A stretch of 64,000 nt of DNA from IMG/VR virus record IMGVR_UViG_3300045988_171102; one strand, written 5' to 3'. This DNA comes from a virus. Every line of letters starts with the position of its first letter. The first letter of the stretch is position 1. This document shows, one piece after another, positions 14,363 to 30,212 of this stretch. Position numbers and translations under genes: made by a program. The notes beneath the pieces are model-generated. The model ran no database searches. It saw nothing but the letters and a program-made list of their open reading frames with translations, and had not been told where the DNA came from.

Positions 14363-14587
14363 TTACCATTTAATGTTTCCAACTTTGATATAACTATTTT
14401 CATACATCATTTCAGCAGTGTCAGATACCTTTATATCTTCCAAAGTGCAATGCTCGGACTCTATCTGCTCGAATTGCTCCCGCAAGCCCTCACCAAAAGC
14501 AATAGCACATCTTTTATTTACAACTTCCTTTTTGTCTCCCAGATATTTCGTCCGATGTCCTTTTGCGTGATACTTCACAACAAACAT
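14363..14587 (-). CDS. Hypothetical protein (74 aa)
   Basis: ORF track entry with a GAGGAGGAA RBS. Confidence 0.7.
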   Translation of the reverse strand: MFVVKYHAKGHRTKYLGDKKEVVNKRCAIAFGEGLREQFEQIESEHCTLEDIKVSDTAEMMYENSYIKVGNIKW

Positions 14588-17962: not shown

Positions 17963-18299
17963 TTTTTGTTACCTCCTAAAAAATGAATAATAAAATATAT
18001 TTATTGTTGTTTTTTCAAAATGATATAATTTACCTGCGGAATTTAGTACCATTTCTAAAAACAAAATGAATACAAAATGTAAAAATATGATAGATTTGAA
18101 ATCTTTTAAAAATTCAATTTCATGAAGTTTTTTTGTTTGAGCTTCAAAAAATTCATTTTGCAGCCCGAAAAAGATTTTTTTGTCTATATTTTTCAAAGAT
18201 CTAAAAAATAATTCAAGCACATTAAAATTAACGGATGATTTATTTTTTTTAATTGATGGGATAGGACTGATAGGCTCAACCCTTCAGAAACCGTTTAAT

Positions 18300-18500
18300 T
18301 TATTGAATTATAGGCGTTTTATATATTTCAGTTTCCCCATTATATGTAATTGCTATATTGTTATTTGAAGTATAATCCACCTCTAAATGTTTAAGTATAT
18401 AAGACCCTGTAATTTTAACAGTACAAATGACAGTACATGCAAAAATAACAATTATTGCAAAAATTAATGCTATTTTTTTACAGTTACTAAAAGATTTCAT
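18300..18500 (-). CDS. Small membrane-anchored protein (66 aa)
   Basis: ORF track entry with a TGGAGGTAAC RBS and one N-terminal TM segment. It is the first gene of the minus-strand arm. Confidence 0.65.
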   Translation of the reverse strand: MKSFSNCKKIALIFAIIVIFACTVICTVKITGSYILKHLEVDYTSNNNIAITYNGETEIYKTPIIQ

Positions 18501-18531
18501 TTTGTTACCTCCACAGTTTTTTTGATTATGT

Positions 18532-18560
18532 TTGACAAAGAATAAATAATAATGTATGAT
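18532..18560 (+). promoter_or_regulatory. Sigma-A type promoter of the RHH gene
   Basis: TTGACA (18532-18537), a 17-nt spacer, then TATGAT (18555-18560). Confidence 0.6.
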
Positions 18561-18651
18561 ATGTTTTAGATTTTAAACATCTTTTTTTCCTTTTTGTCTA
18601 CGACAATTATATCACAAGTTGTTACATTTTTCAAGCGTTATTTTATACAAA

Positions 18652-18672
18652 GATATAACAACTTGTTATATC
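18652..18672. promoter_or_regulatory. 21-bp perfect palindrome (candidate operator)
   Basis: GATATAACAA-C-TTGTTATATC lies between the promoter and the RHH start. A related half-site copy (ATATCACAAGTTGTTA) is at about 18609-18624. Confidence 0.5.
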
Positions 18673-18710
18673 GGTTTTATATAAACTGCACAATAACAGA
18701 AGGTGATACA

Positions 18711-18932
18711 ATGACAATAAATAACAATAGCAATAACAATAATTTACAAAATAAAACTTCAGAAGCTCGAAAAAAAGCAAGTGCAAAATATACTAAAAAA
18801 ACATATAAAAACAAAACGGTATATATTAAATTAACTGATTTAGAAAAGATTGACGCATACCTTCAAAGCGTGGGTATGAGCTGCACACAGTTTTTTTATA
18901 AAGCGTTAAGGGATAATGGTGTAGATGTATAA
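18711..18932 (+). CDS. Ribbon-helix-helix (CopG/Arc-like) DNA-binding protein (73 aa)
   Basis: GAAGGTGA RBS and ATG at 18711. The pattern KTVYIKLTDLEKIDAYLQSVGMSCTQFFYKAL fits a beta-alpha-alpha RHH fold. Confidence 0.55.
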   Translation: MTINNNSNNNNLQNKTSEARKKASAKYTKKTYKNKTVYIKLTDLEKIDAYLQSVGMSCTQFFYKALRDNGVDV

Positions 18933-19658
18933 ATATTATTGTTTATGGCAGGCAGGAAGATAGGCAAGAAAAAAAGCACAAAAGTGCTTTAACAAATTAA
19001 AGTGTTATAAAAAATATAAGTATTTATTTCGTTGAAGTGCATTTATATATACTTATAAATAATATAACTGTATAATCAATGAATGCACGAAGTCTTTTAA
19101 TACTTTAATGTACTAAAGTGTTATAATAAATATAACTGTATTTTCTCCCGCTCCCACGAACTTATAAAACAGCTCTTCAAGCTCTTTTCTTCTTTTCTAA
19201 CTGTCCGCTTTTTGATGTTTTGTGGACAATTAACAAGTTTTTTAATGCCGATGAAGTAAGATAACGCAAGCTGCTAAAACAAATAAGAAACAATTTTTTT
19301 CAAATTTTAAGAATTAAAATAATCAAAAAACCTCCGATATTATCTATCTTTTTTTTGATTTTCTTAAAGTTTAAAGTATAATGCAAAAGCAAAAAAATAC
19401 AATAATTTATAATTCAAATTTCATAACGCTAACGCTTTATGCCGTACACTAAACGGCTATATATAGGGGGGTAGTTTACATTCCCTAAACGATTTTCATT
19501 TCCAATAAAGGGCATAGTACACTCATCCAAATATTCGCCACCAAAAATCCAATTATGAATTTCCCCACCTCCCCTATCTCTAAAATCCCCTATTTTTTAC
19601 TCTTATATTTTTGACCACTTTTTTTCAACCAATTTAAAAATTATTAATGCTTTATAAA

Positions 19659-19960
19659 TTCCTTAAATACCGCATATTCAAGCCATTTTTTACTTATTAA
19701 ACCTACACAACATTATTTTCATATTTAACCCCTTTAAACTTCCTTAAAACCTCATTGCCAAGCCATTTTCACGAACTTAACATAGAATTAATAAAAAAAC
19801 GCAATTTTACAAATTATAGTATCCCCAATAATACAATTAATATATTCTTTAGGTTTTAAGCCATTTTTTAAATAATTTACGCTTTAAATAATTTCATAAT
19901 CTTAATAGATTCAATATTCAAGTTCATTCCAATTCATTTTCTTAAAATACCGTATATCTA
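19659..19960 (+). repeat. Iteron-like degenerate direct repeats (TTCCTTAAA.ACC.CAT...CAAGCCATTTT family)
   Basis: Full copies lie at 19659-19690 and 19740-19770, 81 bp apart. Partial copies lie at 19851-19870, 19911-19930 and 19939-19958. AAGCCATTTTTT also occurs at 26394-26405. Confidence 0.5.
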
Positions 19961-20186
19961 AATGCAAAAAAATACTTTATTTTTTTCAACTGCTATTTCT
20001 GTAACCATATACAACTTTTAACTTATTACTCTTATTTCCCATTATTGCTTAATAATCATATTAAAAAACAATTTCAATTCTTAGTTTAACCACTCATTTT
20101 TGTATGAAGTGGTCTTTTTATTTCTTAAAGATCTAATTAAACAACCACACTAACGCTACAGTAAAATTACAAAAATTATTATGTCA

Positions 20187-20305
20187 GACAACAAATTGAA
20201 AATAAGAGACGAGTAAACTCGGATGTTATTTTCTGTTTGTTGTCGTAAACAGTTGTTGATTGTTTTACCTTCAGGTGAAACAAGAAATGACTGTTTACTT
20301 TTATT
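20187..20305 (+). ncRNA. Two adjacent long hairpins ending in a U-tract (candidate structured RNA)
   Basis: Hairpin 1 spans 20187-20244 (GACAACAA/TTGTTGTC outer stem, GAAAATAA/TTATTTTC, CGAG/CTCG). Hairpin 2 spans 20245-20298 (GTAAACAG/CTGTTTAC, GTTTTACC/GGTGAAAC). TTTTATT follows. Confidence 0.3.
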
Positions 20306-20723
20306 GGCTTGGCAACAATTATGTGATAAGAAATTTATTTGTTATAATTCACAATAATAAGTATCTCTTATGCTCTTCATAGTCTCTATACGCTCTCAGA
20401 TTGCAATGAACTCTCTTTTATGTAAAAAATACCCTAATACACCAATAACTTTGCTTACAATCAATTTTTAAGCCTTTTAGAGCACATTCTGTTTTATTTA
20501 ATTCTTTAATAATTACTTTTAAAAAATACAACATATCTCTATTTTGCTCTATTTTGCCCTGTATTCGATTTTTTGGTTTAGCAATGTAATTATACTATTT
20601 TTGTATTTTAGTTTAATACAAGCCAATTTTCGCAAGAATAGAATAAGTTTTGAACGCAAATGCTTATTACATATTGATTTAATATTAATTTAATAATATT
20701 TTTTACTTTTTTTACTGAAACTA

Positions 20724-20751
20724 TTGCAATTTTAAAATTATCTGTTATAAT
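20724..20751 (+). promoter_or_regulatory. Extended -10 promoter reading into the AGCGTTAGC sites
   Basis: TTGCAA (20724-20729), a 16-nt spacer, then TGtTATAAT (20743-20751). Confidence 0.5.
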
Positions 20752-20820
20752 ATATTTTAGACATATCAGTTACAAGTGACGGTTAAAGATTATTTGTATT
20801 TACATGTTCAGGATTAAATA

Positions 20821-20911
20821 AGCGTTAGCGTTTTAATCCGTTTAAGGTTTAATTATCGCTAAGCGTTAGCTTAGTGAGAAATAAACCGCAATCAGCCCCC
20901 GTAGCGTTAGC
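20821..20911 (+). repeat. Three AGCGTTAGC sites spaced exactly 41 bp apart
   Basis: Copies lie at 20821-20829, 20862-20870 and 20903-20911. Copies 2 and 3 form 6-bp stems with a GTTA loop (CTAAGC-GTTA-GCTTAG and CGTAGC-GTTA-GCTACG). Copy 1 lies in the loop of an 8-bp stem. Confidence 0.7.
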
Positions 20912-21090
20912 TACGGCACAAAAGAATGAATATATCTAACTAATAAGTTTTCTTATTGGTTTGTTTCTTTTTACTTATGTTCACCGTCATTTGTAATTTA
21001 TGTTTTATTTGACTATTTATTTTATTCTTTTGTTTCTTATTTCTTATTTTCTTAATTTTATTTTGAATTTAAAGAAAGAACCAAAGAAAG

Positions 21091-21128
21091 GATTTACTTA
21101 TTACCCCTAAAGGGGTAATAAGTAAATC
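21091..21128. repeat. Perfect 38-bp inverted repeat
   Basis: GATTTACTTATTACCCCT-AA-AGGGGTAATAAGTAAATC has 18-bp arms with no mismatch. Confidence 0.85.
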
Positions 21129-21220
21129 TAATAATATTAAATTTCTTATATTTATTTCTTATATTATTTATATTATTAAATATATATTATATTATAAATT
21201 TATATTATAAATAACAAAAA
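21129..21220. other. Nearly pure A+T tract (candidate DNA unwinding element)
   Basis: About 90 bp with only a handful of C residues and reiterated ATATTAT/TTATATT motifs, lying between the palindrome and the Rep-like gene. Confidence 0.5.
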
Positions 21221-21329
21221 GGTGTGAGTAAAAAACGAACACCGTATTAATGAACTTTTATTTATAAAAGGTTGTGTGCAAAAAATAGTCGAAAAGTGGT
21301 TACAATTTTGTTACAAAAAGGATGATTGA

Positions 21330-22349
21330 ATGGTGTATACATATAAAAATGAGTTTGTCAATTTTAAGTTACTTGTAAATCAATCAGTTACTTCTAACAT
21401 GACAATACCAAAAAACATTATTGATGAATTATTCAAAAATAAAAATGAAAAAGTTTGGTTTGCGTATTATGTTATGAGAGGGCTTGGGCGGTTAATTATG
21501 TATTCACAAGCAATACATAGTTGGAAGCAAGATAAATTTCAGGCAAGCAATCAAAAAAATGGTAATAAGATTATTGCCGATTATTTTAATAACATAAGAC
21601 TTATTGAAATCAAACGCAGCTTCACTGACTTGACCAAAGACATATTTGAGAATTTTTCATTTTATGTAATTTTTGAAACTTTATTTCCTTTTGTAGATAG
21701 AAAGTTTTATAAGTCACTTGAGAAAATCTTTTTTGATGGATTAGAATATTTCATTAAACAAGGTAAGATTGTACGAATTTGTAATCGTAGAATTGGTTAT
21801 CCGTATTATCGGACTATGTATTGGAACATCACTGTTGATATAAAGCCAATTTACATTACAGATGAGTTTGCAGATGAATTAACAGTTGAGACACTTAACT
21901 TACCTAATAATATTTTAAACACTTCTTACTCATTTAAATCTGAATGGTTAAGTCAATGTTTTAAGATTACCGAAGCGAATCCAATGAAGGCATTAAGGAT
22001 GTCGAGAGTTTTGTGTTTTATAATAAATAAAAGAATTAAGCGATATCATAAAAAAATTGCATATCTATCATTTAGGACATTGAGCAACCTTACAGGACTT
22101 TGTGAACGAAGTATTAAAAATTATGTAAAAGAATTACGAGATAATAATTTACTTTATTATGACAACTATATTTTAATTGCGAATCCTCTGAAGCAGGTGT
22201 GTAAGTATAGCAAAAATTTTTATTGCCTGCCTGAAGATAAAGACTATTTAGAGAAAATAGTTGAAAAATATAGAATTAAAAAAATTGAAGCAGAACAAAA
22301 TACAAAAGCGAAACAACCAATAAATGAAATGATAGAAAATTTTGAATGA
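21330..22349 (+). CDS. Replication initiator-like protein with a C-terminal winged-helix motif (339 aa)
   Basis: ORF track entry. LSFRTLSNLTGLCERSIKNYVKELRDNNLLYY looks like a wHTH. It lies immediately downstream of the iteron/A+T region. Confidence 0.5.
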   Translation: MVYTYKNEFVNFKLLVNQSVTSNMTIPKNIIDELFKNKNEKVWFAYYVMRGLGRLIMYSQAIHSWKQDKFQASNQKNGNKIIADYFNNIRLIEIKRSFTDLTKDIFENFSFYVIFETLFPFVDRKFYKSLEKIFFDGLEYFIKQGKIVRICNRRIGYPYYRTMYWNITVDIKPIYITDEFADELTVETLNLPNNILNTSYSFKSEWLSQCFKITEANPMKALRMSRVLCFIINKRIKRYHKKIAYLSFRTLSNLTGLCERSIKNYVKELRDNNLLYYDNYILIANPLKQVCKYSKNFYCLPEDKDYLEKIVEKYRIKKIEAEQNTKAKQPINEMIENFE

Positions 22350-22548
22350 GTCTTTTAATACATTATTTGGTATTTAGTGTAATTCACTTTAATGCTTTAG
22401 TGTGTTAAAGAGTTTTATGAAAGGTTGTGGTATATTCAATTACTTTTATTTAAATGAAGTTAGTTAGACACCTTTTTCAATTTTAACTAATGGGTAATTC
22501 AACTATTGAGACATTAAAAAACAATTTAGAATGGTCAGAAAGGATTGA

Positions 22549-23441: not shown

Positions 23442-26318
23442 ATGGCTCAAAGCAAAGCTGTAAATATACCGTTATTGGACGGTAAAGATGTGTATATTGC
23501 AAATCATTATATTAACAATAGTTTGAACGGATATACACTTAGAGACAAATTTGGTGACTTAAATATAAAGAAATTTGTCGCCACAATGGATTATAGTTTA
23601 GACTTAATTAAATTGAATGATGTTTACAAAGAAGTGTATCGAAATAGAAATTTTTATGAATATGTTGGCAGAAATAAAAAATATACAAGGCATGTTATAA
23701 ATGTCACTTTTAAATACAGCAATAAACTTTACAATCGGGCTGGTTCAGGTTTGTATATTAAATTCGGTTACTCCCCTACCGAAGTTATATTAGAAAATAA
23801 TGCTTGTATTAAAGATGGTACTTTAATAGCTATTCGAGTATTGCCAGATGGTAAAGAAAAAAATATTACAGAAGATTATCTTGTGAAGTCTCCCCTTTCA
23901 CAAGAAATCTTAGGTGAATATTTTTTTTATGATAAAGAATTATCTGTTTATAGAGCTAAAGATAATATTGAGACATTAACCTCAATTTCTGACATTAGAA
24001 CTGATTTATATGAAAATGGTTTTGTTTGTGACGGAATTAAGTATGTACGATTTAAACGCAGTAGTGGTAGCAGTCGTGTAGGTAAATGCCTATTTATTGA
24101 CGAAAAATTATACAAAAAGATGCATAAATGGGAAATGTGTGGATTAAATGTAAAGAATGGTGTTAAATGTGATTTGGCGAGTCTTGAGCCTTATATAGCA
24201 TTAACTCTTTCTTCTATCATAGACACAATAACCATTGAACCAAATGAAATTCTTGTCATCCCCGATTATGAAAGCAAATTTACGACAACTTGCGTTGCTA
24301 CAGAACTTGATAAGGATAATAGACTTATTTCGTCAGCAAAACAAGTTGATATGTCAAATAGTATTTGGGATGGACAGTCCTTATTAGATGTTAGTAAATT
24401 TGAGGACTACAAAAATTATGGTATGTTGTTATTGCGTACACGTTTTTTTAAATCTGCTTGTTTTAATACTAATATTCAGCAATGGTTTACTGATAACGGA
24501 ATCACTGACATATCGCAATTAAATGGATATACTCAAGCCACAAAATTGTCTGATATTAAATTAATTACTACTCCAAGCAGTATTAAATATTTAAAATTTG
24601 GTTCTTTAGAAGATTGGCTATGGACAATTGAACCACAATTTGGTGTTGTAAAACATGAAAAGCCTACTCATTATTTTGATGGTAGAATGGTTCAAACACA
24701 TTATCAATTGCTTAATACTTTACAATTGACGAAAGATGAAGTAGAGAAATTTATTCAACCTACAATTGACTATATTATGAAATTGAAAACAGACAGTGCT
24801 GTATTTAGGCATCACATTAAATATTCAATTCCTGAATATACAAATGCTGAATCTCAACAATTGGCGAATAAAAATGATATTGTATATTACTTGCTTGGAC
24901 TAAATAATAAATTTAGCCAAACCAAAATGTACAAAGACTTTTGTAATGAAACTGTTAAGGCATTTGTTAAAAACTGTCGCAAGGGACATATCTTCGTACA
25001 TGGTAATTATTCAACACTATTTGGCAACCCTATCGAAATGCTACAAAGTTGCATTGGACGATTTAATGGAGAACCTAAAATTAAAGCAGGCACAGTACAT
25101 TGTACGATGTTTAATAATGGTGATAAGTTAATAGGAAGTCGTTCTCCTCATGTTACAATGGGAAATATTTTATGTTGTCAGAATGTAATATATGAGGACA
25201 TTAATAAATATTTTAATTTAAGTAATGAGATAGTATGTGTCAATAGTATTCGTGATAATTTATTAGAGAGATTAAGTGGTTCAGATTTTGATTCTGACAC
25301 TGTTTTGTTGACAGATAATAAAATATTATATCAAGCTGCAATTCGTAATTATGATAATTTTCTTGTACCGACAAAATTAGTGTCAAGTAAAAAATGTGAG
25401 CGTAGATATACGGCACGAGATAAAGCTGAACTTGACATTAAGACAGGAACAAATAAAATTGGAGAAATCATTAATTTATCTCAAGAATTAAATTCTAAGT
25501 TATGGGAATTAATTTATAACGGATATGATATACAATCAAATGAGGTACAATCACTTTATGCTGATATTGCACAATTAGATGTGATGAGCAATTTGGAGAT
25601 TGATTCAGCTAAAAGAGAAAATCCGGCAAACAATTCTATGGAGCTTAAATTATTAAAAGCTAAATATGCTGTATATGATAACAAAGGTAGATATGTCCGA
25701 CCACTATTTTTTAAATATTTGGATAAGTATAAGGGGTATGACAATAATCGAAAACATTATCGGCTTTATAATACTACGATGGATTATGTCGAACTTGCTT
25801 TAAATAAAATACCTCGTGTAAGAAATAATGCTCCCCTTTTAAATTTATCAGACATTTTTAAATCATCTAATGCAATTGATGGACAAGTGTATTATGAACA
25901 AGTTGAGCGTATATTGTCCGCCATTCAAGATACTAAAGACGAAATTGGTCATTTGTGGTCAAAGTATAAATCTAAAACTGGGAATGTTAATAAAGGTGAA
26001 GATGCTTTCTCTTATGAGCAGTGTTTAAAGATGACAGAAGAAGCAAAAGAAGATTGCGTAGAATATATTAATTCACTTAAAATTTCTAAAAAAACAATGC
26101 GTTATCTTTTATCTTTAATCGAAAAACCCACACATAAAAATTATTCAGCATTATTTTTATCAGCAATATTCACTTACCACAATATAAATTTTGATGAATT
26201 AGTTGCCGATAGTCAAGAAAATGTATTTCAAATTAAAGAATGTCCGATAGAATCAGAACAGTATGACATTAAGTTATATGACTTTAATTACCGATATGTA
26301 AGTAATGTGAATACATAA
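23442..26318 (+). CDS. YonO/RdRP-like two-barrel single-subunit RNA polymerase (958 aa)
   Basis: LSGSDFDSDTVLL (DFDSD at nt 25284-25298) resembles the DxDGD catalytic loop (SGGDLDGD) of QDE-1-type RdRPs, YonO and the beta-prime NADFDGD. The upstream GSRSPHVTMGNI resembles RNPCLHPGDI. The size is appropriate. Confidence 0.6.
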   Translation: MAQSKAVNIPLLDGKDVYIANHYINNSLNGYTLRDKFGDLNIKKFVATMDYSLDLIKLNDVYKEVYRNRNFYEYVGRNKKYTRHVINVTFKYSNKLYNRAGSGLYIKFGYSPTEVILENNACIKDGTLIAIRVLPDGKEKNITEDYLVKSPLSQEILGEYFFYDKELSVYRAKDNIETLTSISDIRTDLYENGFVCDGIKYVRFKRSSGSSRVGKCLFIDEKLYKKMHKWEMCGLNVKNGVKCDLASLEPYIALTLSSIIDTITIEPNEILVIPDYESKFTTTCVATELDKDNRLISSAKQVDMSNSIWDGQSLLDVSKFEDYKNYGMLLLRTRFFKSACFNTNIQQWFTDNGITDISQLNGYTQATKLSDIKLITTPSSIKYLKFGSLEDWLWTIEPQFGVVKHEKPTHYFDGRMVQTHYQLLNTLQLTKDEVEKFIQPTIDYIMKLKTDSAVFRHHIKYSIPEYTNAESQQLANKNDIVYYLLGLNNKFSQTKMYKDFCNETVKAFVKNCRKGHIFVHGNYSTLFGNPIEMLQSCIGRFNGEPKIKAGTVHCTMFNNGDKLIGSRSPHVTMGNILCCQNVIYEDINKYFNLSNEIVCVNSIRDNLLERLSGSDFDSDTVLLTDNKILYQAAIRNYDNFLVPTKLVSSKKCERRYTARDKAELDIKTGTNKIGEIINLSQELNSKLWELIYNGYDIQSNEVQSLYADIAQLDVMSNLEIDSAKRENPANNSMELKLLKAKYAVYDNKGRYVRPLFFKYLDKYKGYDNNRKHYRLYNTTMDYVELALNKIPRVRNNAPLLNLSDIFKSSNAIDGQVYYEQVERILSAIQDTKDEIGHLWSKYKSKTGNVNKGEDAFSYEQCLKMTEEAKEDCVEYINSLKISKKTMRYLLSLIEKPTHKNYSALFLSAIFTYHNINFDELVADSQENVFQIKECPIESEQYDIKLYDFNYRYVSNVNT

Positions 26319-26490
26319 AAATAGCTCATTTTTTGCAAAAAACGGCAAAAAACTAAGTTTTTTAAATTGAAATCTTCAAAAAAGCCAGTATTTAAGCCAT
26401 TTTTTATAATAAATAAAAGATGTATATGGTAAAGAGAGTGAACCTCCCCATCACTCTCTTTAAATATAATTTAGAAAGAGTGATTTATTT

Positions 26491-26691
26491 TTGTTTCCTA
26501 TTACAAAGGAAGAAAGTATAAAAATCAGAAAGAAATATCCTGAAGCAGAAATCAGAAGAACTGTTAAGCAGAAAAGTAAGAGGCATAAATATTTTTGTCC
26601 AGAGATAAAAAAATATCTTGTATTAATCAAAGATACGAATGAGATAGCTTGTTCAATCTATACACGAAAGAGAAAATACTTTAATGCTTAA
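26491..26691 (+). CDS. Basic small protein (66 aa, TTG start)
   Basis: ORF track entry; overlaps the start of the next gene. Confidence 0.55.
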   Translation: MFPITKEESIKIRKKYPEAEIRRTVKQKSKRHKYFCPEIKKYLVLIKDTNEIACSIYTRKRKYFNA

Positions 26692-28063: not shown

Positions 28064-29056
28064 ATGCCTGTAAGAAGTAAAAAGATATGTCTACTTGACT
28101 ATGATAAACTAAGCAAAGTTAATTCTGAAACGCTTAAATTATACAAGAAATATGAAGCTGATATGGCTATTCGAGAATTGTCCAAAAAATCTATTGCAGT
28201 GTATTACAATGACCTTGTTAATTGGTGGATGTACATTTATGACTATCAGGATAATCGCTCAGTCAAAGAAATTAACGAAGATGACATTATTGAATTTATT
28301 TACTTCTGTAAGCAGAATGGTAATAACACAGAAAGAATAAAGCATAGAATGGCTTCAATTTCAGCTTTTTATAAATTTTTAAGAAAAAGAAAATTAATTG
28401 TAGAAAATCCAATGGATTATGTTGACCGTCCAAAAAAAGGTCAAGCTGTTGTTAAGCAGACTTTTTTAACTGTTGAACAAGTAGATACAATGAGAAAAGT
28501 CTTAAAGCAGAAGATTGAGGATAGTAAAAATAAATCCTTGCGTTGTAAACATGACTCGATTATGTTGAGGGTGTATGCAGAATTTTCGCTTATTACAATG
28601 GCAAGAATAAATGCTATTGCTAATTTGCGTTGGGAACAAATTGATTTTGCTGAATGTGTCGCAAACGATGTTATTGAAAAATTAGGCAAAATTGTAAGTT
28701 TGTACTTTGATGAGAGCACTAAAGAGTATTTGATTGAATTACAGAATTTCAGAAAAGAAAACAGAATTAACGATAATGGATGGGTGTTTTATTCTATGGC
28801 ATCGCAGACAGGCAATCACTTATCAACAACAGCCTTATCTGATATGTGCAAAGAAATTGGACAAATGATTAGTGTTCCTACCCTACATCCACACGATTTT
28901 CGTCATAGTGGTGCTACTTTATACAAGAATGCAGGAATGTCATTAGAAGAAGTTTCTCACTGTCTGCATCATGAAAGTACAGAAGTTACCCGAAAATTTT
29001 ACATCAAAGAAAATGACACTGAATTAAGAGCGAAAAAGAATCAGTGTCATATTTAA
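28064..29056 (+). CDS. Tyrosine recombinase (XerC/D- or phage-integrase-family, 330 aa)
   Basis: TMARINAIANLRWEQID, HPHDFRHSGATLYKNAGMSLEEVSHCLHHESTEVTRKFY (R..HxxR..H..Y catalytic pattern) and an N-terminal SAM-like core-binding region. Confidence 0.85.
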   Translation: MPVRSKKICLLDYDKLSKVNSETLKLYKKYEADMAIRELSKKSIAVYYNDLVNWWMYIYDYQDNRSVKEINEDDIIEFIYFCKQNGNNTERIKHRMASISAFYKFLRKRKLIVENPMDYVDRPKKGQAVVKQTFLTVEQVDTMRKVLKQKIEDSKNKSLRCKHDSIMLRVYAEFSLITMARINAIANLRWEQIDFAECVANDVIEKLGKIVSLYFDESTKEYLIELQNFRKENRINDNGWVFYSMASQTGNHLSTTALSDMCKEIGQMISVPTLHPHDFRHSGATLYKNAGMSLEEVSHCLHHESTEVTRKFYIKENDTELRAKKNQCHI

Positions 29057-29072
29057 AGGGCGGTGAGCGTTA

Positions 29073-30212
29073 GTGGCAAACAATACAACTACCAAAACTC
29101 AGCGTGAATATAAATGTAAAATATGTGGAAAGTCATATAAAAATATTACAGGCAATTTTTATAAATCTGCTAATTCTTTATATTTCATTAGTAATAATGG
29201 CATTATAGATGTGTGCGTAGATTGCTTAAAGGAGTTATTTAGTCAATTAAGTAAAAAATATGATTCTGATAGAATGGCACTTATTGCAATTTGTGCTTTA
29301 ACCGATTGGTATTACGATGAAAGTGCATATAATACAGCGATAAAAAATCGAGAAGAATTTAGTATTGGTGTATATGCAAGACTTATGAACACTGTTAAGT
29401 ATAAAGGAAAAACTTTTATTACCAGTGTTGCAGAGAAAAAACTGGGGGAAACAACCATTCAAATGGTTGAGCAGACTCATGATGTGGGTTGGAATGATAT
29501 TGATAAAAAGAACAGAGATACTGTAATTGAGATTTATGGATATGATCCATTCCCTGATAATGATTTTTCAGATAAAAGTAGAAAATATTTATTTAATACA
29601 ATAATAGATTTTCTTGATGAAGAAACTCAAGAAGATGCTTTCAAGAAATCACAAATCATTCAAATTGTTGTTAATAACGAAATGATTCAAAGGTGTAATG
29701 CAAAAATTGCTTCACTTGATGAAACAAGAGATCTTGAGCAAATTAAAAACTTAAGTAACATTATTACCTCGAAAGTTAATGATAATGATAAAATCGCAAA
29801 AGAAAACGAAATCTCCGTTAGAAATCGTAGTAATAAAAAACAAGGTAAAGGTACATTTACAGATTTGCAAAAAGAATTAAGGTTAAAAAACTTTGATGAA
29901 GCAGAAGCAAATTATTACAAGCAATTACAATCTGAGGGCAGTGCATGGGCTGTTAATCAATCTATGCAAGCAATAAAGAAAAATTCCTTTTTTGATGAAA
30001 GTGACCAAAAAGAAATTGTAGATATACAAAGAGAACTGATAGAAAAAAAGGATAAGGCATTAGATGATGCTTTAGAAGAAAACAGATTATTGTATGTAAA
30101 TATTGAGAAATATAAATCTCAAATAAAGGAACTTGAAAATAAAAATAGCGAACTTAATGAAGAGTTGACAAGCTTTAATAACAAACATAATACAGGTGAT
30201 GACAATGAGTAG
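29073..30212 (+). CDS. Zn-ribbon/coiled-coil protein, possible small terminase subunit (379 aa)
   Basis: Lies immediately upstream of and overlapping terL. The N-terminus carries CKICGK...CVDC. The assignment rests on position only. Confidence 0.35.
   Translation: MANNTTTKTQREYKCKICGKSYKNITGNFYKSANSLYFISNNGIIDVCVDCLKELFSQLSKKYDSDRMALIAICALTDWYYDESAYNTAIKNREEFSIGVYARLMNTVKYKGKTFITSVAEKKLGETTIQMVEQTHDVGWNDIDKKNRDTVIEIYGYDPFPDNDFSDKSRKYLFNTIIDFLDEETQEDAFKKSQIIQIVVNNEMIQRCNAKIASLDETRDLEQIKNLSNIITSKVNDNDKIAKENEISVRNRSNKKQGKGTFTDLQKELRLKNFDEAEANYYKQLQSEGSAWAVNQSMQAIKKNSFFDESDQKEIVDIQRELIEKKDKALDDALEENRLLYVNIEKYKSQIKELENKNSELNEELTSFNNKHNTGDDNE

What the first reader, a model, noticed from the sequence alone, without database searches (positions are those of the whole stretch)
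20811..20915. Three AGCGTTAGC sites phased at exactly 41 bp, each able to form a GUUA-loop hairpin
AGCGTTAGC occurs at 20821, 20862 and 20903, with identical 41-bp spacing (about four helical turns). This relatively G+C-rich 9-mer recurs in inverted orientation at 19428-19436 (a 12-mer, AGCGTTAGCGTT, is shared with copy 1), at 854-862, and as 8/9 matches at 20149-20157 and 29063-29071. Copies 2 and 3 are the centres of CTAAGC-GTTA-GCTTAG and CGTAGC-GTTA-GCTACG. The flanks are not conserved in sequence but keep their complementarity. That is covariation-like behaviour, which argues for a hairpin (RNA or single-stranded DNA) presenting a fixed GUUA loop rather than a simple duplex iteron. Candidate roles are Rep iterons, a single-strand initiation site, or RNA hairpins bound by a protein or by sRNA-A.
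Basis: seen in the sequence. Interest (0 to 1): 0.65.

Follow-up and report, generated by a model that had tools for sequence, protein, structure and literature searches.

The report
Three-hairpin RNA domain in gut phage
The three repeated 9-mers are the tips of three stem-loops in a roughly 240-base folded element, most likely a non-coding leader RNA, in the control region of an SPbeta-like gut phage; it is a plausible new phage RNA element of an ordinary kind, not a set of replication-protein binding sites.

Summary
AGCGTTAGC occurs five times (0.17 expected), three of them exactly 41 bp apart, at the tips of three hairpins. The window is an SPbeta-like temperate siphovirus of gut Clostridia. 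The sites lie in a 2.4-kb non-coding region between divergent gene blocks, upstream of an HTH_36 gene and a YonO-type RNA polymerase gene.

In the one divergent relative clade (L118/L119) all three hairpins persist, with nine compensatory base-pair changes. G.U pairs occur only on the + strand. However, the 9-mer, the GUUA loop and the 41-bp phasing are not conserved. Loops become GAUA, UUUA and AUUA, and the spacing becomes 48/48. Near-identical relatives show 41/40 and 41/45 spacing and a polymorphic middle loop.

A recombinant (L124) combines window-type hairpins with an HTH_36 protein only 52% identical. This argues against Rep iterons.

The hairpins lie between an extended -10 promoter and a weak terminator-like hairpin that is fully conserved between clades. 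A long-range helix (20762-20783 with 20983-21002) encloses all of them.

My best reading is a structured leader or small RNA that gates rightward early transcription. Single-stranded-DNA and pac-site roles are not excluded. There is no Rfam match. Interest is modest.

The parts
20724..20751 (+). Sigma-A/sigma-70-type promoter with extended -10 (TTGCAA-16-TGtTATAAT). The predicted start is about 20759.
   Evidence: 10/12 match plus TG. Invariant in all close relatives. L118 has a different, weaker candidate (TTGCTT..TGgTATCAT, read; not flagged).
20762..20783 (+). 5' arm of a long-range helix that encloses the whole domain. It can alternatively form a local hairpin at 20771-20798.
   Evidence: MFE and centroid folds (z = -8.4). 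Same architecture in L118 (z = -9.0). The core TGACGGT/ACCGTCA is kept in both clades.
20811..20839 (+). Hairpin 1: an 8-bp outer stem, a UAA/GU internal loop, then the GC-GUUA-GC tip (9-mer copy 1).
   Evidence: -9.0 kcal/mol. Two compensatory pairs in L118 and one G-C to G.U change in L268.
20846..20887 (+). Hairpin 2: a 6-bp outer helix plus a 9-bp inner stem (20856-20877) with a GUUA loop (9-mer copy 2).
   Evidence: -18.7 kcal/mol, z = -6.4. Six pairs change on both sides in L118, where the stem is longer and tipped CGAC-UUUA-GUCG. The loop is polymorphic in close relatives.
20896..20916 (+). C-run (CCCCC), then hairpin 3 (20899-20916), a 7-bp stem with a GUUA loop (9-mer copy 3).
   Evidence: -12.1 kcal/mol. 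Stem and flanks are identical in L118 apart from loop position 1. This is sequence-level conservation rather than covariation.
20938..20974 (+). Weak terminator-like hairpin (20938-20961, 10 bp, only 2 G-C pairs) followed by a U-rich tract.
   Evidence: -8.5 kcal/mol. 100% identical between clades apart from one inserted A in the loop. It was not flagged by the terminator scan, which requires 3 G-C pairs.
20983..21002 (+). 3' arm of the long-range helix. It is part of a block, TATGTTCACCGTCAYTTGTARTTTAT, that is almost invariant between clades.
   Evidence: Also present at the start of contig L123.
19422..19441 (-). Fourth copy, in inverse orientation. It shares the 13-mer AAGCGTTAGCGTT with hairpin 1 and forms a weak hairpin on either strand.
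   Evidence: z about -1.1, not significant. The 13-mer is invariant in the close clade, but L118 has ACGCT-TTC-AGCGT at this position. Membership is uncertain.

Best explanation
The three AGCGTTAGC sites are the tips of three stem-loops in one folded element of about 240 nt on the + strand (about 20759-21002). It is most likely an RNA.

Proposed mechanism:
- The host sigma-A polymerase starts at the extended -10 promoter (20724-20751).
- It transcribes a 5' arm, three hairpins, a C-run, a weak terminator-like hairpin with a U-tract, and a 3' arm that pairs back to the 5' arm.
- The element lies at the head of the rightward early block (HTH_36 protein, a 184-aa protein, the YonO-type RNA polymerase, then the late genes).
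- I therefore propose that it is a cis-acting leader. Its folded hairpin domain decides how much transcription passes the internal terminator-like signal into that block. This is the logic used by HK022 put RNA and the conAn2 leader of Gram-positive conjugative plasmids.
- The identical 9-mers in this genome reflect a shared tip motif (AGC-NNUA-GC). That motif is sequence-constrained in hairpins 1 and 3 and free in hairpin 2. It is not a phased array of duplex sites.

What is shown: the hairpins, their strand, their conservation and covariation, and their position between promoter-like and terminator-like signals.

What is inferred: that the element is transcribed; that it acts in cis; that it affects termination.

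My sub-confidences: hairpins under selection on the + strand 0.8; RNA rather than ssDNA 0.65; leader/antitermination-type function 0.3.
For: - Excess of the 9-mer.
- Fold z-scores: -6.8 for 201 nt and -8.4 for the 244-nt domain, against -4.0 for the opposite strand.
- Same architecture in L118, which is ~74% identical in this region: z = -9.0, three hairpins, a terminator-like hairpin and a closing helix.
- 98.7% of cells paired. Nine pairs change on both sides, against 0-1 when the partners are slid and a mean of 0.8 in shuffles.
- G.U pairs occur only when the + strand is read (7-159, 13-39, 51-106, 52-105, 61-96 and 171-189).
- An extended -10 promoter about 60 nt upstream, invariant in the clade.
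- A terminator-like hairpin plus U-tract, fully conserved between clades.
- No strong promoter-like site between 20975 and the gene at 21330; the only one is a 9/12 match.
- No ORF of note in the element.
- The L188-191 clade has, at the same position, a strong promoter (11/12) followed by a different structured RNA and a long T-run. A promoter followed by structured non-coding sequence at this position is therefore a conserved layout.
- The conAn2 precedent: a leader of about 240 nt flanked by inverted repeats, in which stem-loops and a GC-rich patch are required for antitermination (PMC8191782).
Against: - There are no expression data.
- All compensatory changes come from a single divergent lineage. 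That amounts to one independent comparison, made on an alignment fitted to the model.
- Hairpin 3 and the terminator-like hairpin never vary, so they say nothing about structure.
- The terminator-like hairpin is weak (2 G-C pairs) and failed the scan's criterion.
- The L118 promoter is poor.
- The P1 stem (20804-20810 with 20927-20933) has C.A mismatches in 4 of 11 sequences.
- Folding with ssDNA parameters is just as significant (z = -7.4).
- A copy in inverse orientation at 19428 and a cumulative GC-skew minimum at about 20-21 kb also fit an origin-type geometry.
- The element is confined to two closely related clades. The covariance model found nothing else in ~2.2 Mb of SPbeta-like loci.
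Confidence: 0.45

Rival explanations
1. A stand-alone trans-acting small RNA of about 215 nt (20759-20975). It would present repeated hairpin tips and a single-stranded C-run, and act as a protein decoy or sponge or as a base-pairing regulator. It would not act on its own transcript.
For: Promoter and terminator-like signals bracket a 215-nt unit with z = -5.6. The tips of hairpins 1 and 3 and the C-run are conserved in sequence beyond what structure requires. The + strand 13-mer AACGCTAACGCTT at 19425-19437 is the exact complement of the tip of hairpin 1 and lies at the 5' end of a candidate + strand non-coding transcript.
Against: The conserved long-range helix needs sequence beyond the terminator-like hairpin. 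In L118 no complement of its own hairpin tips occurs in the 16.9-kb locus, and the equivalent of the 19425 site is different. Four-nucleotide loops are poor kissing partners. The middle loop is freely polymorphic. No candidate binding protein was identified.
Confidence: 0.15
2. Single-stranded-DNA hairpins used in replication. This could be a priming or single-strand initiation signal on the lagging-strand template, or extruded hairpins at an origin lying between 19.4 and 20.8 kb.
For: The ssDNA fold is as significant as the RNA fold. The three + strand hairpins lie to the right, and one inverse copy to the left, of the cumulative GC-skew minimum and the switch in gene orientation. For a bidirectional origin, that places each on the lagging-strand template. 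Downstream are AT-rich short tandem repeats (TTTCTTA x4.4, TTATATTAT and others at 21024-21212) and a gene with an HTH_36 domain and a faint Phage_rep_O match. From my own knowledge, the phage G4 complementary-strand origin is also a set of three hairpins.
Against: Promoter-like and terminator-like signals flank the hairpins and are conserved. The 22-bp hairpin 2 of L118 contains three G.U/G.T pairs, which RNA tolerates better than DNA. The inverse copy is a weak hairpin and is not conserved in L118. The skew minimum equally reflects divergent transcription. No origin has been mapped.
Confidence: 0.12
3. Duplex-DNA protein-binding repeats. Candidates are Rep iterons, small-terminase (pac) boxes, or operators of a phage repressor.
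For: There are three identical 9-mers at equal spacing, plus copies in both orientations within the same non-coding region. In SPbeta the pac site and genome opening point map to the equivalent yonR-yonP gap, just upstream of yonO (bioRxiv 10.1101/2021.11.22.469490). Five independent assemblies end at window positions ~21157-21204, 250-350 bp to the right of the hairpins. Equal spacing is seen again in L118 (48/48).
Against: L118 has no common 9-mer in its three hairpins, and the spacing changes from 41 to 48 bp, i.e. from 3.9 to 4.6 turns. Helical phasing is therefore not kept. The flanks evolve by compensatory changes, which a duplex site does not require. Window-type sites coexist with a 52%-identical HTH_36 protein in L124. 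The contig ends coincide with AT-rich low-complexity repeats that can break assemblies.
Confidence: 0.08
4. No specific function: neutral palindromes in a fast-evolving non-coding region. The three identical tips would result from short-patch gene conversion or chance.
For: The element is restricted to two related clades. The loops and the spacing drift. The 41-nt units share nothing beyond the 9-mer.
Against: Five copies are found against 0.17 expected. There are compensatory changes in two hairpins. Hairpin 1's tip, hairpin 3, the terminator-like hairpin and the downstream block are near-invariant, while the surrounding region is ~74% identical. The z-scores are very negative in both clades.
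Confidence: 0.08

Closest known systems
conAn2 leader RNA of the bipartite conAn antitermination system (pLS20 and other Gram-positive conjugative plasmids; PMC8191782)
   Same: A non-coding leader of about 240 nt in a low-GC Firmicute mobile element. Its central region is flanked by inverted repeats. It contains stem-loops and a locally GC-rich patch. It lies near the start of a long operon and upstream of terminators.
   Different: No sequence or model similarity was tested or is known. conAn2 follows the conAn1 gene, and no ConAn1-like gene was recognised here. conAn2's flanking repeats were dispensable, and it has two stem-loops rather than three. The function here is untested.
HK022 put RNA (putL/putR), a cis-acting processive antiterminator (PMC9378689; details from my own knowledge)
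   Same: Hairpins transcribed just downstream of an early phage promoter. Stems are kept by covariation. Terminators lie downstream. A related copy in opposite orientation serves the other early operon, which would match the inverse copy at 19428.
   Different: put has two stem-loops of about 70 nt in a lambdoid phage of E. coli. There is no sequence relationship, and Rfam gave no match. The inverse copy here is weak and not conserved in L118.
Lambda-type nut sites (boxB hairpins bound by N protein; from my own knowledge)
   Same: Small hairpins with a fixed tip downstream of divergent early promoters, in both orientations.
   Different: boxB is a single 5-bp stem with a GNRA-like pentaloop, next to a boxA element. 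Here there are three hairpins with 4-nt loops that vary among relatives. No boxA lies downstream of the promoter, and no N-like arginine-rich protein was recognised.
Rep iterons of theta-replicating plasmids and phages
   Same: Repeated short identical sequences at regular spacing, near an AT-rich stretch and a gene with a winged-helix replication-type domain (HTH_36).
   Different: The repeat and its helical phasing are not conserved. The flanks co-vary as stems. The sites do not co-vary with the neighbouring protein.
G4-type single-strand initiation signals and ssoA-type single-strand origins (from my own knowledge)
   Same: A cluster of three hairpins on one strand. TAGCGT, the CS-6 consensus of ssoA loops, occurs in hairpin 1 (20827-20832).
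   Different: Those signals belong to ssDNA phages and rolling-circle or enterobacterial plasmids. TAGCGT occurs in one hairpin only and spans loop and stem. No rolling-circle Rep is present. No library was available to test similarity.

Membership tests
Rep iterons (duplex initiator-binding repeats) | Several direct repeats of one conserved sequence, retained in relatives | tested here: not met
   Three identical 9-mers in the window clade. In L118 the three tips are AGCGATAGC, GCGACTTTAGTCG and AGCATTAGC.
Rep iterons (duplex initiator-binding repeats) | Spacing that keeps the sites on one face of the helix | tested here: not met
   41/41 in the window; 41/40 (L124), 41/45 (L264) and 48/48 (L118) in relatives.
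Rep iterons (duplex initiator-binding repeats) | Sites co-vary with the cognate initiator protein | tested here: not met
   L124 has window-type hairpins (97% identical) with an L118-type HTH_36 protein that is 52% identical to the window's. Caveat: it is not shown that binding specificity differs at 52% identity.
Structured cis-acting leader / processive antitermination RNA (put, conAn2, EAR type) | Transcribed from an operon promoter, upstream of the operon's terminators and genes, on the same strand | tested here: inconclusive
   A promoter-like site at 20724-20751, the same orientation as the downstream genes, and an internal terminator-like hairpin. Transcription itself is not testable here.
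Structured cis-acting leader / processive antitermination RNA (put, conAn2, EAR type) | Secondary structure conserved by covariation | tested here: met
   Nine pairs with double changes, 98.7% of cells paired, slid controls 0-1. All the changes come from one lineage.
Structured cis-acting leader / processive antitermination RNA (put, conAn2, EAR type) | Makes RNA polymerase read through downstream terminators | not testable with these tools
   Needs reporter or in vitro transcription assays.
Any Rfam family | Covariance-model match | tested here: not met
   No match at gathering thresholds in the window. Only three chance-level hits with E >= 1 in 18200-21500, none in the element.
Type III toxin-antitoxin RNA arrays (ToxI-like) / mini-CRISPR or repeat-mimic arrays | Near-identical tandem units of about 28-40 nt, followed by a terminator and, for ToxI, a toxin gene | tested here: not met
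   The units share only the 9-mer. No tandem repeat or direct-repeat family is reported at 20811-20933. The downstream proteins have no such annotation.
Lambda nut/boxB | A single short hairpin with a conserved GNRA-like pentaloop, plus boxA, plus an N-type protein | tested here: not met
   The loops are 4 nt and vary (GUUA, GUCA, GUAG, GAUA, UUUA, AUUA). No N-like protein was recognised. boxA was judged by reading the sequence only.
Single-strand initiation signals (G4-type ssi, ssoA) | Hairpins functional as ssDNA on the lagging-strand template and recognised by primase or RNA polymerase | not testable with these tools
   Geometry and ssDNA stability are compatible. The CS-6-like TAGCGT occurs only in hairpin 1.
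pac site (small-terminase recognition boxes) | Repeated boxes next to the packaging cleavage site | tested here: inconclusive
   The region is the positional equivalent of the SPbeta pac region, and contig ends cluster at 21157-21204. However, the boxes are not conserved in L118, and the ends coincide with low-complexity repeats.

The most novel reading that the evidence does not exclude
The three-hairpin domain is a previously undescribed cis-acting RNA switch of the put/conAn2 type. It would act on the host RNA polymerase, or recruit a phage factor, to gate read-through from an early promoter into the operon that encodes the YonO-type single-chain RNA polymerase. It would therefore control entry into late, phage-polymerase-driven transcription in SPbeta-like phages of gut Clostridia.
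Probability: 0.2. Interest if true: 0.6.

Novelty: new member of a known kind. Interest (0 to 1): 0.3.

Why it matters
If the element is transcribed and regulatory, it adds a new structured non-coding RNA, absent from Rfam, to a large and barely studied group: SPbeta-like, YonO-polymerase-carrying phages and prophages of human-gut Lachnospiraceae and Oscillospiraceae. More than 3,000 polymerase homologues were found. It would mark the control point upstream of the phage polymerase gene.

The element is confined to two closely related clades. The eye-catching features, identical loops and exact 41-bp phasing, are not conserved. Multi-hairpin leaders and small RNAs in phage control regions are a familiar kind of thing.

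The analysis also redirects attention to a more widely conserved signal nearby, the GGGGG-N4-TTTACAT motif shared with Bacillus SPbeta.

Tried and rejected
- **Rfam.** Gathering thresholds on the whole window and permissive thresholds on 18200-21500 gave nothing relevant.
- **tRNA/tmRNA.** None found.
- **DNA similarity to GenBank phages.** No match for 18900-22400.
- **Triple-8-mer pattern scan of IMG/VR.** 108 loci. All were unrelated coding or tandem repeats except three near-identical relatives.
- **Pattern scans anchored on the conserved terminator block, in IMG/VR and metagenomes.** They returned only the close clade.
- **Covariance model R1 over ~2.2 Mb of SPbeta-like loci, including SPbeta itself.** It found only the close clade and L118.
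- **Loop-loop or antisense pairing with the complementary 13-mer at 19425-19437.** Not supported in L118.
- **Type I toxin reading of the hydrophobic 36-aa ORF at 21000-21110, with a convergent - strand RNA.** The start codon is absent in L118 and L123 and the ORF is absent in L188. T-rich DNA gives such ORFs for free.
- **Tandem-repeat, type III antitoxin or CRISPR-like reading.** The units share only 9 nt.
- **TGACGGTSA as an operator motif.** The genome-wide excess is unspecific.
- **Function of the 339-aa and 184-aa proteins.** Pfam gave HTH_36 only, plus a faint Phage_rep_O match. NCBIfam, PHROGs and the PDB sequence search gave nothing. The AlphaFold model was unusable at mean pLDDT 36.7, so no fold search was run.
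- **GenBank record starts of SPbeta relatives as a proxy for the pac cut.** Uninformative.

Full report
**1. The observation**

AGCGTTAGC occurs five times in the 64-kb window, against 0.17 expected. None of 100 shuffles reached five. The + strand copies are at 20821, 20862 and 20903, exactly 41 bp apart. The - strand copies are at 854 and 19428.

- Copies 2 and 3 sit at the tips of perfect hairpins: 20856-20877 (9 bp including one G.U) and 20899-20916 (7 bp).
- Copy 1 has only the two G-C pairs next to the loop. It is closed by an 8-bp outer stem after a small internal loop (20811-20839).
- The copy at 19428 shares a 13-mer with copy 1 and forms a weak hairpin with a non-significant z-score.
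- The copies at 854 and 20149 are not hairpins.
- The last 8/9 match lies at 29066-29074, on a ribosome-binding site and start codon.
- Outside the 9-mer the three 41-nt units are unrelated. Neither the repeat finder nor TRF sees a repeat there.

**2. Context**

The window is an AT-rich (~30% GC) siphovirus-type genome.

- It encodes a tape-measure protein, a large terminase and a portal.
- It has a 958-aa protein at 23442-26318 that belongs to a very large family. More than 3,000 homologues were found, some carrying Pfam RdRP PF05183.
- Syntenic neighbours carry the YonG_N and YonD_N domains.

It is therefore an SPbeta-like phage with a YonO-type single-chain RNA polymerase. YonO is the polymerase that transcribes the late genes of Bacillus SPbeta (PMC5467207). 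Relatives are prophages of Lachnospiraceae, Oscillospiraceae and other Clostridia.

Genes left of 18.2 kb are on the - strand, and genes from 21330 onwards are on the + strand. Between them lies 2.4 kb with no ORF of note, at the minimum of cumulative GC skew. The hairpins lie in this region, about 420-520 bp upstream of a 339-aa protein. That protein has an HTH_36 domain (29 bits against a cut-off of 25) and a faint Phage_rep_O match.

**3. Relatives**

About 17 near-identical copies of the element (96-99%) were recovered from IMG/VR, Logan and ENA/JGI gut assemblies. One divergent clade, L118/L119, was also recovered. Its polymerase is 84% identical and this region is about 74% identical. 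More distant SPbeta-like phages do not have the element. This holds for BLAST and for a covariance model searched over about 2.2 Mb of loci, including SPbeta itself.

*What changes in relatives:*

| Relative | Hairpin loops (1/2/3) | Loop-to-loop spacing |
|---|---|---|
| Window and most of the close clade | GUUA / GUUA / GUUA | 41/41 |
| Some close relatives | middle loop GUCA or GUAG | 41/41 |
| L124 | GUUA / GUUA / GUUA | 41/40 |
| L264 | GUUA / GUUA / GUUA | 41/45 |
| L118 | GAUA / UUUA / AUUA | 48/48 |

*What is kept:* all three hairpins. On the model-guided alignment 98.7% of cells are paired. Nine pairs carry changes on both sides: two in hairpin 1, six in hairpin 2 and one in the P1 stem. 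The slid controls give 0-1 and the shuffles a mean of 0.8. All nine come from L118, so this is effectively one independent comparison. Hairpin 3 and the terminator-like hairpin never vary.

G.U pairs appear only when the + strand is read. One example is the G-C to G.U change in L268. Another is the three wobble pairs in the 22-bp hairpin 2 of L118. This identifies the folded strand.

The tip of hairpin 1 (AAAUAAGCGNUAGCGUUUUAA), and hairpin 3 with its C-run and 3' flank, are nearly identical between clades. A common motif, AGC-NNUA-GC, therefore survives in hairpins 1 and 3, while hairpin 2 is free to change.

**4. Against Rep iterons**

L124 is a natural recombinant. Its non-coding region, hairpins included, is 90-97% identical to the window's. 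Its HTH_36 protein is only 52% identical to the window's and is of the L118 type. The same protein type therefore sits next to two different hairpin sets.

Together with the loss of a common 9-mer and of helical phasing in L118, this argues against sequence-specific duplex sites for that protein. More plausible iteron-like material lies further right: TTTCTTA x4.4 and TTATATTAT-type repeats at 21024-21212.

**5. Extent and anatomy of the element**

- An extended -10 promoter (TTGCAA-16-TGtTATAAT, 20724-20751) lies about 60 nt upstream and is invariant in the clade.
- Downstream of hairpin 3 is a 10-bp A/U-rich hairpin with a U-tract (20938-20974; -8.5 kcal/mol).
- That hairpin is too GC-poor for the terminator scan, but it is identical between clades apart from one inserted A in the loop.
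- The next block, TATGTTCACCGTCAYTTGTARTTTAT, is also almost invariant. It pairs with 20762-20783, so the minimum-energy and centroid folds of 20759-21002 enclose everything in one long-range helix (z = -8.4).
- L118 folds the same way (z = -9.0).
- Between 20975 and the gene at 21330, only one weak promoter-like site (9/12) was found on the + strand.
- The L188-191 clade (polymerase 71% identical) has a strong promoter at the same position, followed by a different structured sequence and a long T-run.

**6. Interpretation**

The best-supported reading is a folded + strand transcript at the head of the rightward early block. The need for sequence beyond the terminator-like hairpin favours a cis-acting leader whose fold modulates read-through. 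So does the lack of a separate strong promoter for the downstream genes. The closest functional precedents are HK022 put RNA and the conAn2 leader of Gram-positive conjugative plasmids. In conAn2, stem-loops and a GC-rich patch in an inverted-repeat-flanked region of about 240 nt are required for antitermination (PMC8191782).

This resemblance is one of layout only. No membership is claimed, and the function is inferred.

Rivals:
- **A trans-acting small RNA.** The exact complement of the tip of hairpin 1 lies at 19425-19437 on the + strand. This complementarity is not maintained in L118.
- **Single-stranded-DNA hairpins at or near an origin.** ssDNA folding is equally significant. The + copies on the right and the - copy on the left of the skew minimum fit lagging-strand templates.
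- **pac-related duplex boxes.** In SPbeta the pac/opening point maps to the equivalent yonR-yonP gap. Five assemblies end at 21157-21204, but those ends coincide with low-complexity repeats.

**7. Novelty and verdict**

There is no Rfam family, and I found no description of this element. It is a candidate new structured RNA of a familiar kind, a multi-hairpin phage leader or sRNA, restricted to two closely related clades of gut phages.

The fixed GUUA loop, the helical phasing and the Rep-iteron role are not. Interest is modest at 0.3. It would rise only if the element proves to gate expression of the YonO-type polymerase operon.

Noticed in passing
window 19459-19481 (+), then 19482-20125; L275 (SPbeta AF020713) 14569-14583 (-): The motif ATATA-GGGGG(G)-N4-TTTACAT is followed by a stretch that is strongly G-depleted on the + strand. 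In the window the stretch is about 650 nt and ends in a + strand terminator-like hairpin at 20090-20125. The motif recurs upstream of the YonO-type polymerase gene in very distant relatives (L116 twice, L118, L150, L155, L163, L181, L182, L188-190, L263). It also occurs as an exact match in Bacillus SPbeta, on the yonP/yonO strand in the yonR-yonP gap, where the pac/opening point was mapped. There too it is followed by G-poor sequence. The poly-G length varies from 6 to 10 among near-identical relatives. It is a candidate conserved packaging or phage-polymerase signal, and arguably more interesting than the assigned finding.
   Followed up: partly
window 21070-21128 and 21204-21232: A polypurine block (AAAGAAAGAACCAAAGAAAG) is followed by a perfect 17-18-bp palindrome. 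The layout is conserved in L118 (4700-4760) and L188 (2785-2835), but the palindrome sequence differs. On the - strand the palindrome reads as an intrinsic terminator. It lies about 70-100 nt downstream of a - strand promoter-like site (TTTACT-17-TATAAT). Together these suggest a small - strand transcript convergent with the hairpin element.
   Followed up: partly
window 21157-21204: Five independent assemblies (L184, L186, L187, L269, L273) end within this 50-nt AT-rich zone of short tandem repeats. One of them is a 100,188-bp IMG/VR contig. A sixth assembly (L123) starts at ~20976. These are either physical genome ends or assembly breaks at low-complexity sequence.
   Followed up: partly
window 19680, 19757, 19858 and 26394 (+): The motif AAGCCATTTTT recurs in the G-depleted stretch and again in the gap between the polymerase gene and the next gene (26318-26684). 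Similar copies occur in L118 and L188. Its role is unknown.
   Followed up: no
window 20187-20244 and 20245-20298: Two adjacent long imperfect hairpins (28 and 26 nt arms, 81-82% complementary) are conserved at 82% identity in L118 (3735-3887).
   Followed up: no
L246 2437-2660 (also L258, L262, L248); L161 2790-2900; L236 2625-2690: Other SPbeta-like relatives carry short tandem arrays of hairpin-forming units a few kb upstream of the polymerase gene: 34 nt x7 followed by a terminator, 68 nt x2, and 41 nt x2. They are unrelated in sequence to the window's hairpins.
   Followed up: no
L124 versus window 18204-21384: Mosaicism: the non-coding control region is 90% identical to the window's, but identity drops to 52% (protein) right at the start of the HTH_36 gene. 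That gene is instead of the L118 type. This indicates modular exchange at the boundary between the non-coding region and the gene.
   Followed up: yes
window 21000-21110 (+): A 36-aa hydrophobic ORF with a KKEPKK tail lies between the hairpin element and the palindrome, which resembles a type I toxin layout. Its start codon is missing in L118 and L123 and the ORF is absent in L188, so it is probably an artefact of T-rich sequence.
   Followed up: yes
window 28064-29056 (+): A XerC/D-like tyrosine-recombinase gene sits between an exonuclease-like gene and the YonG-like/terminase genes, and is conserved there in L118 and L122. From my own knowledge, SPbeta's master repressor is a recombinase-like protein, so a non-integrase role is conceivable.
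   Followed up: no
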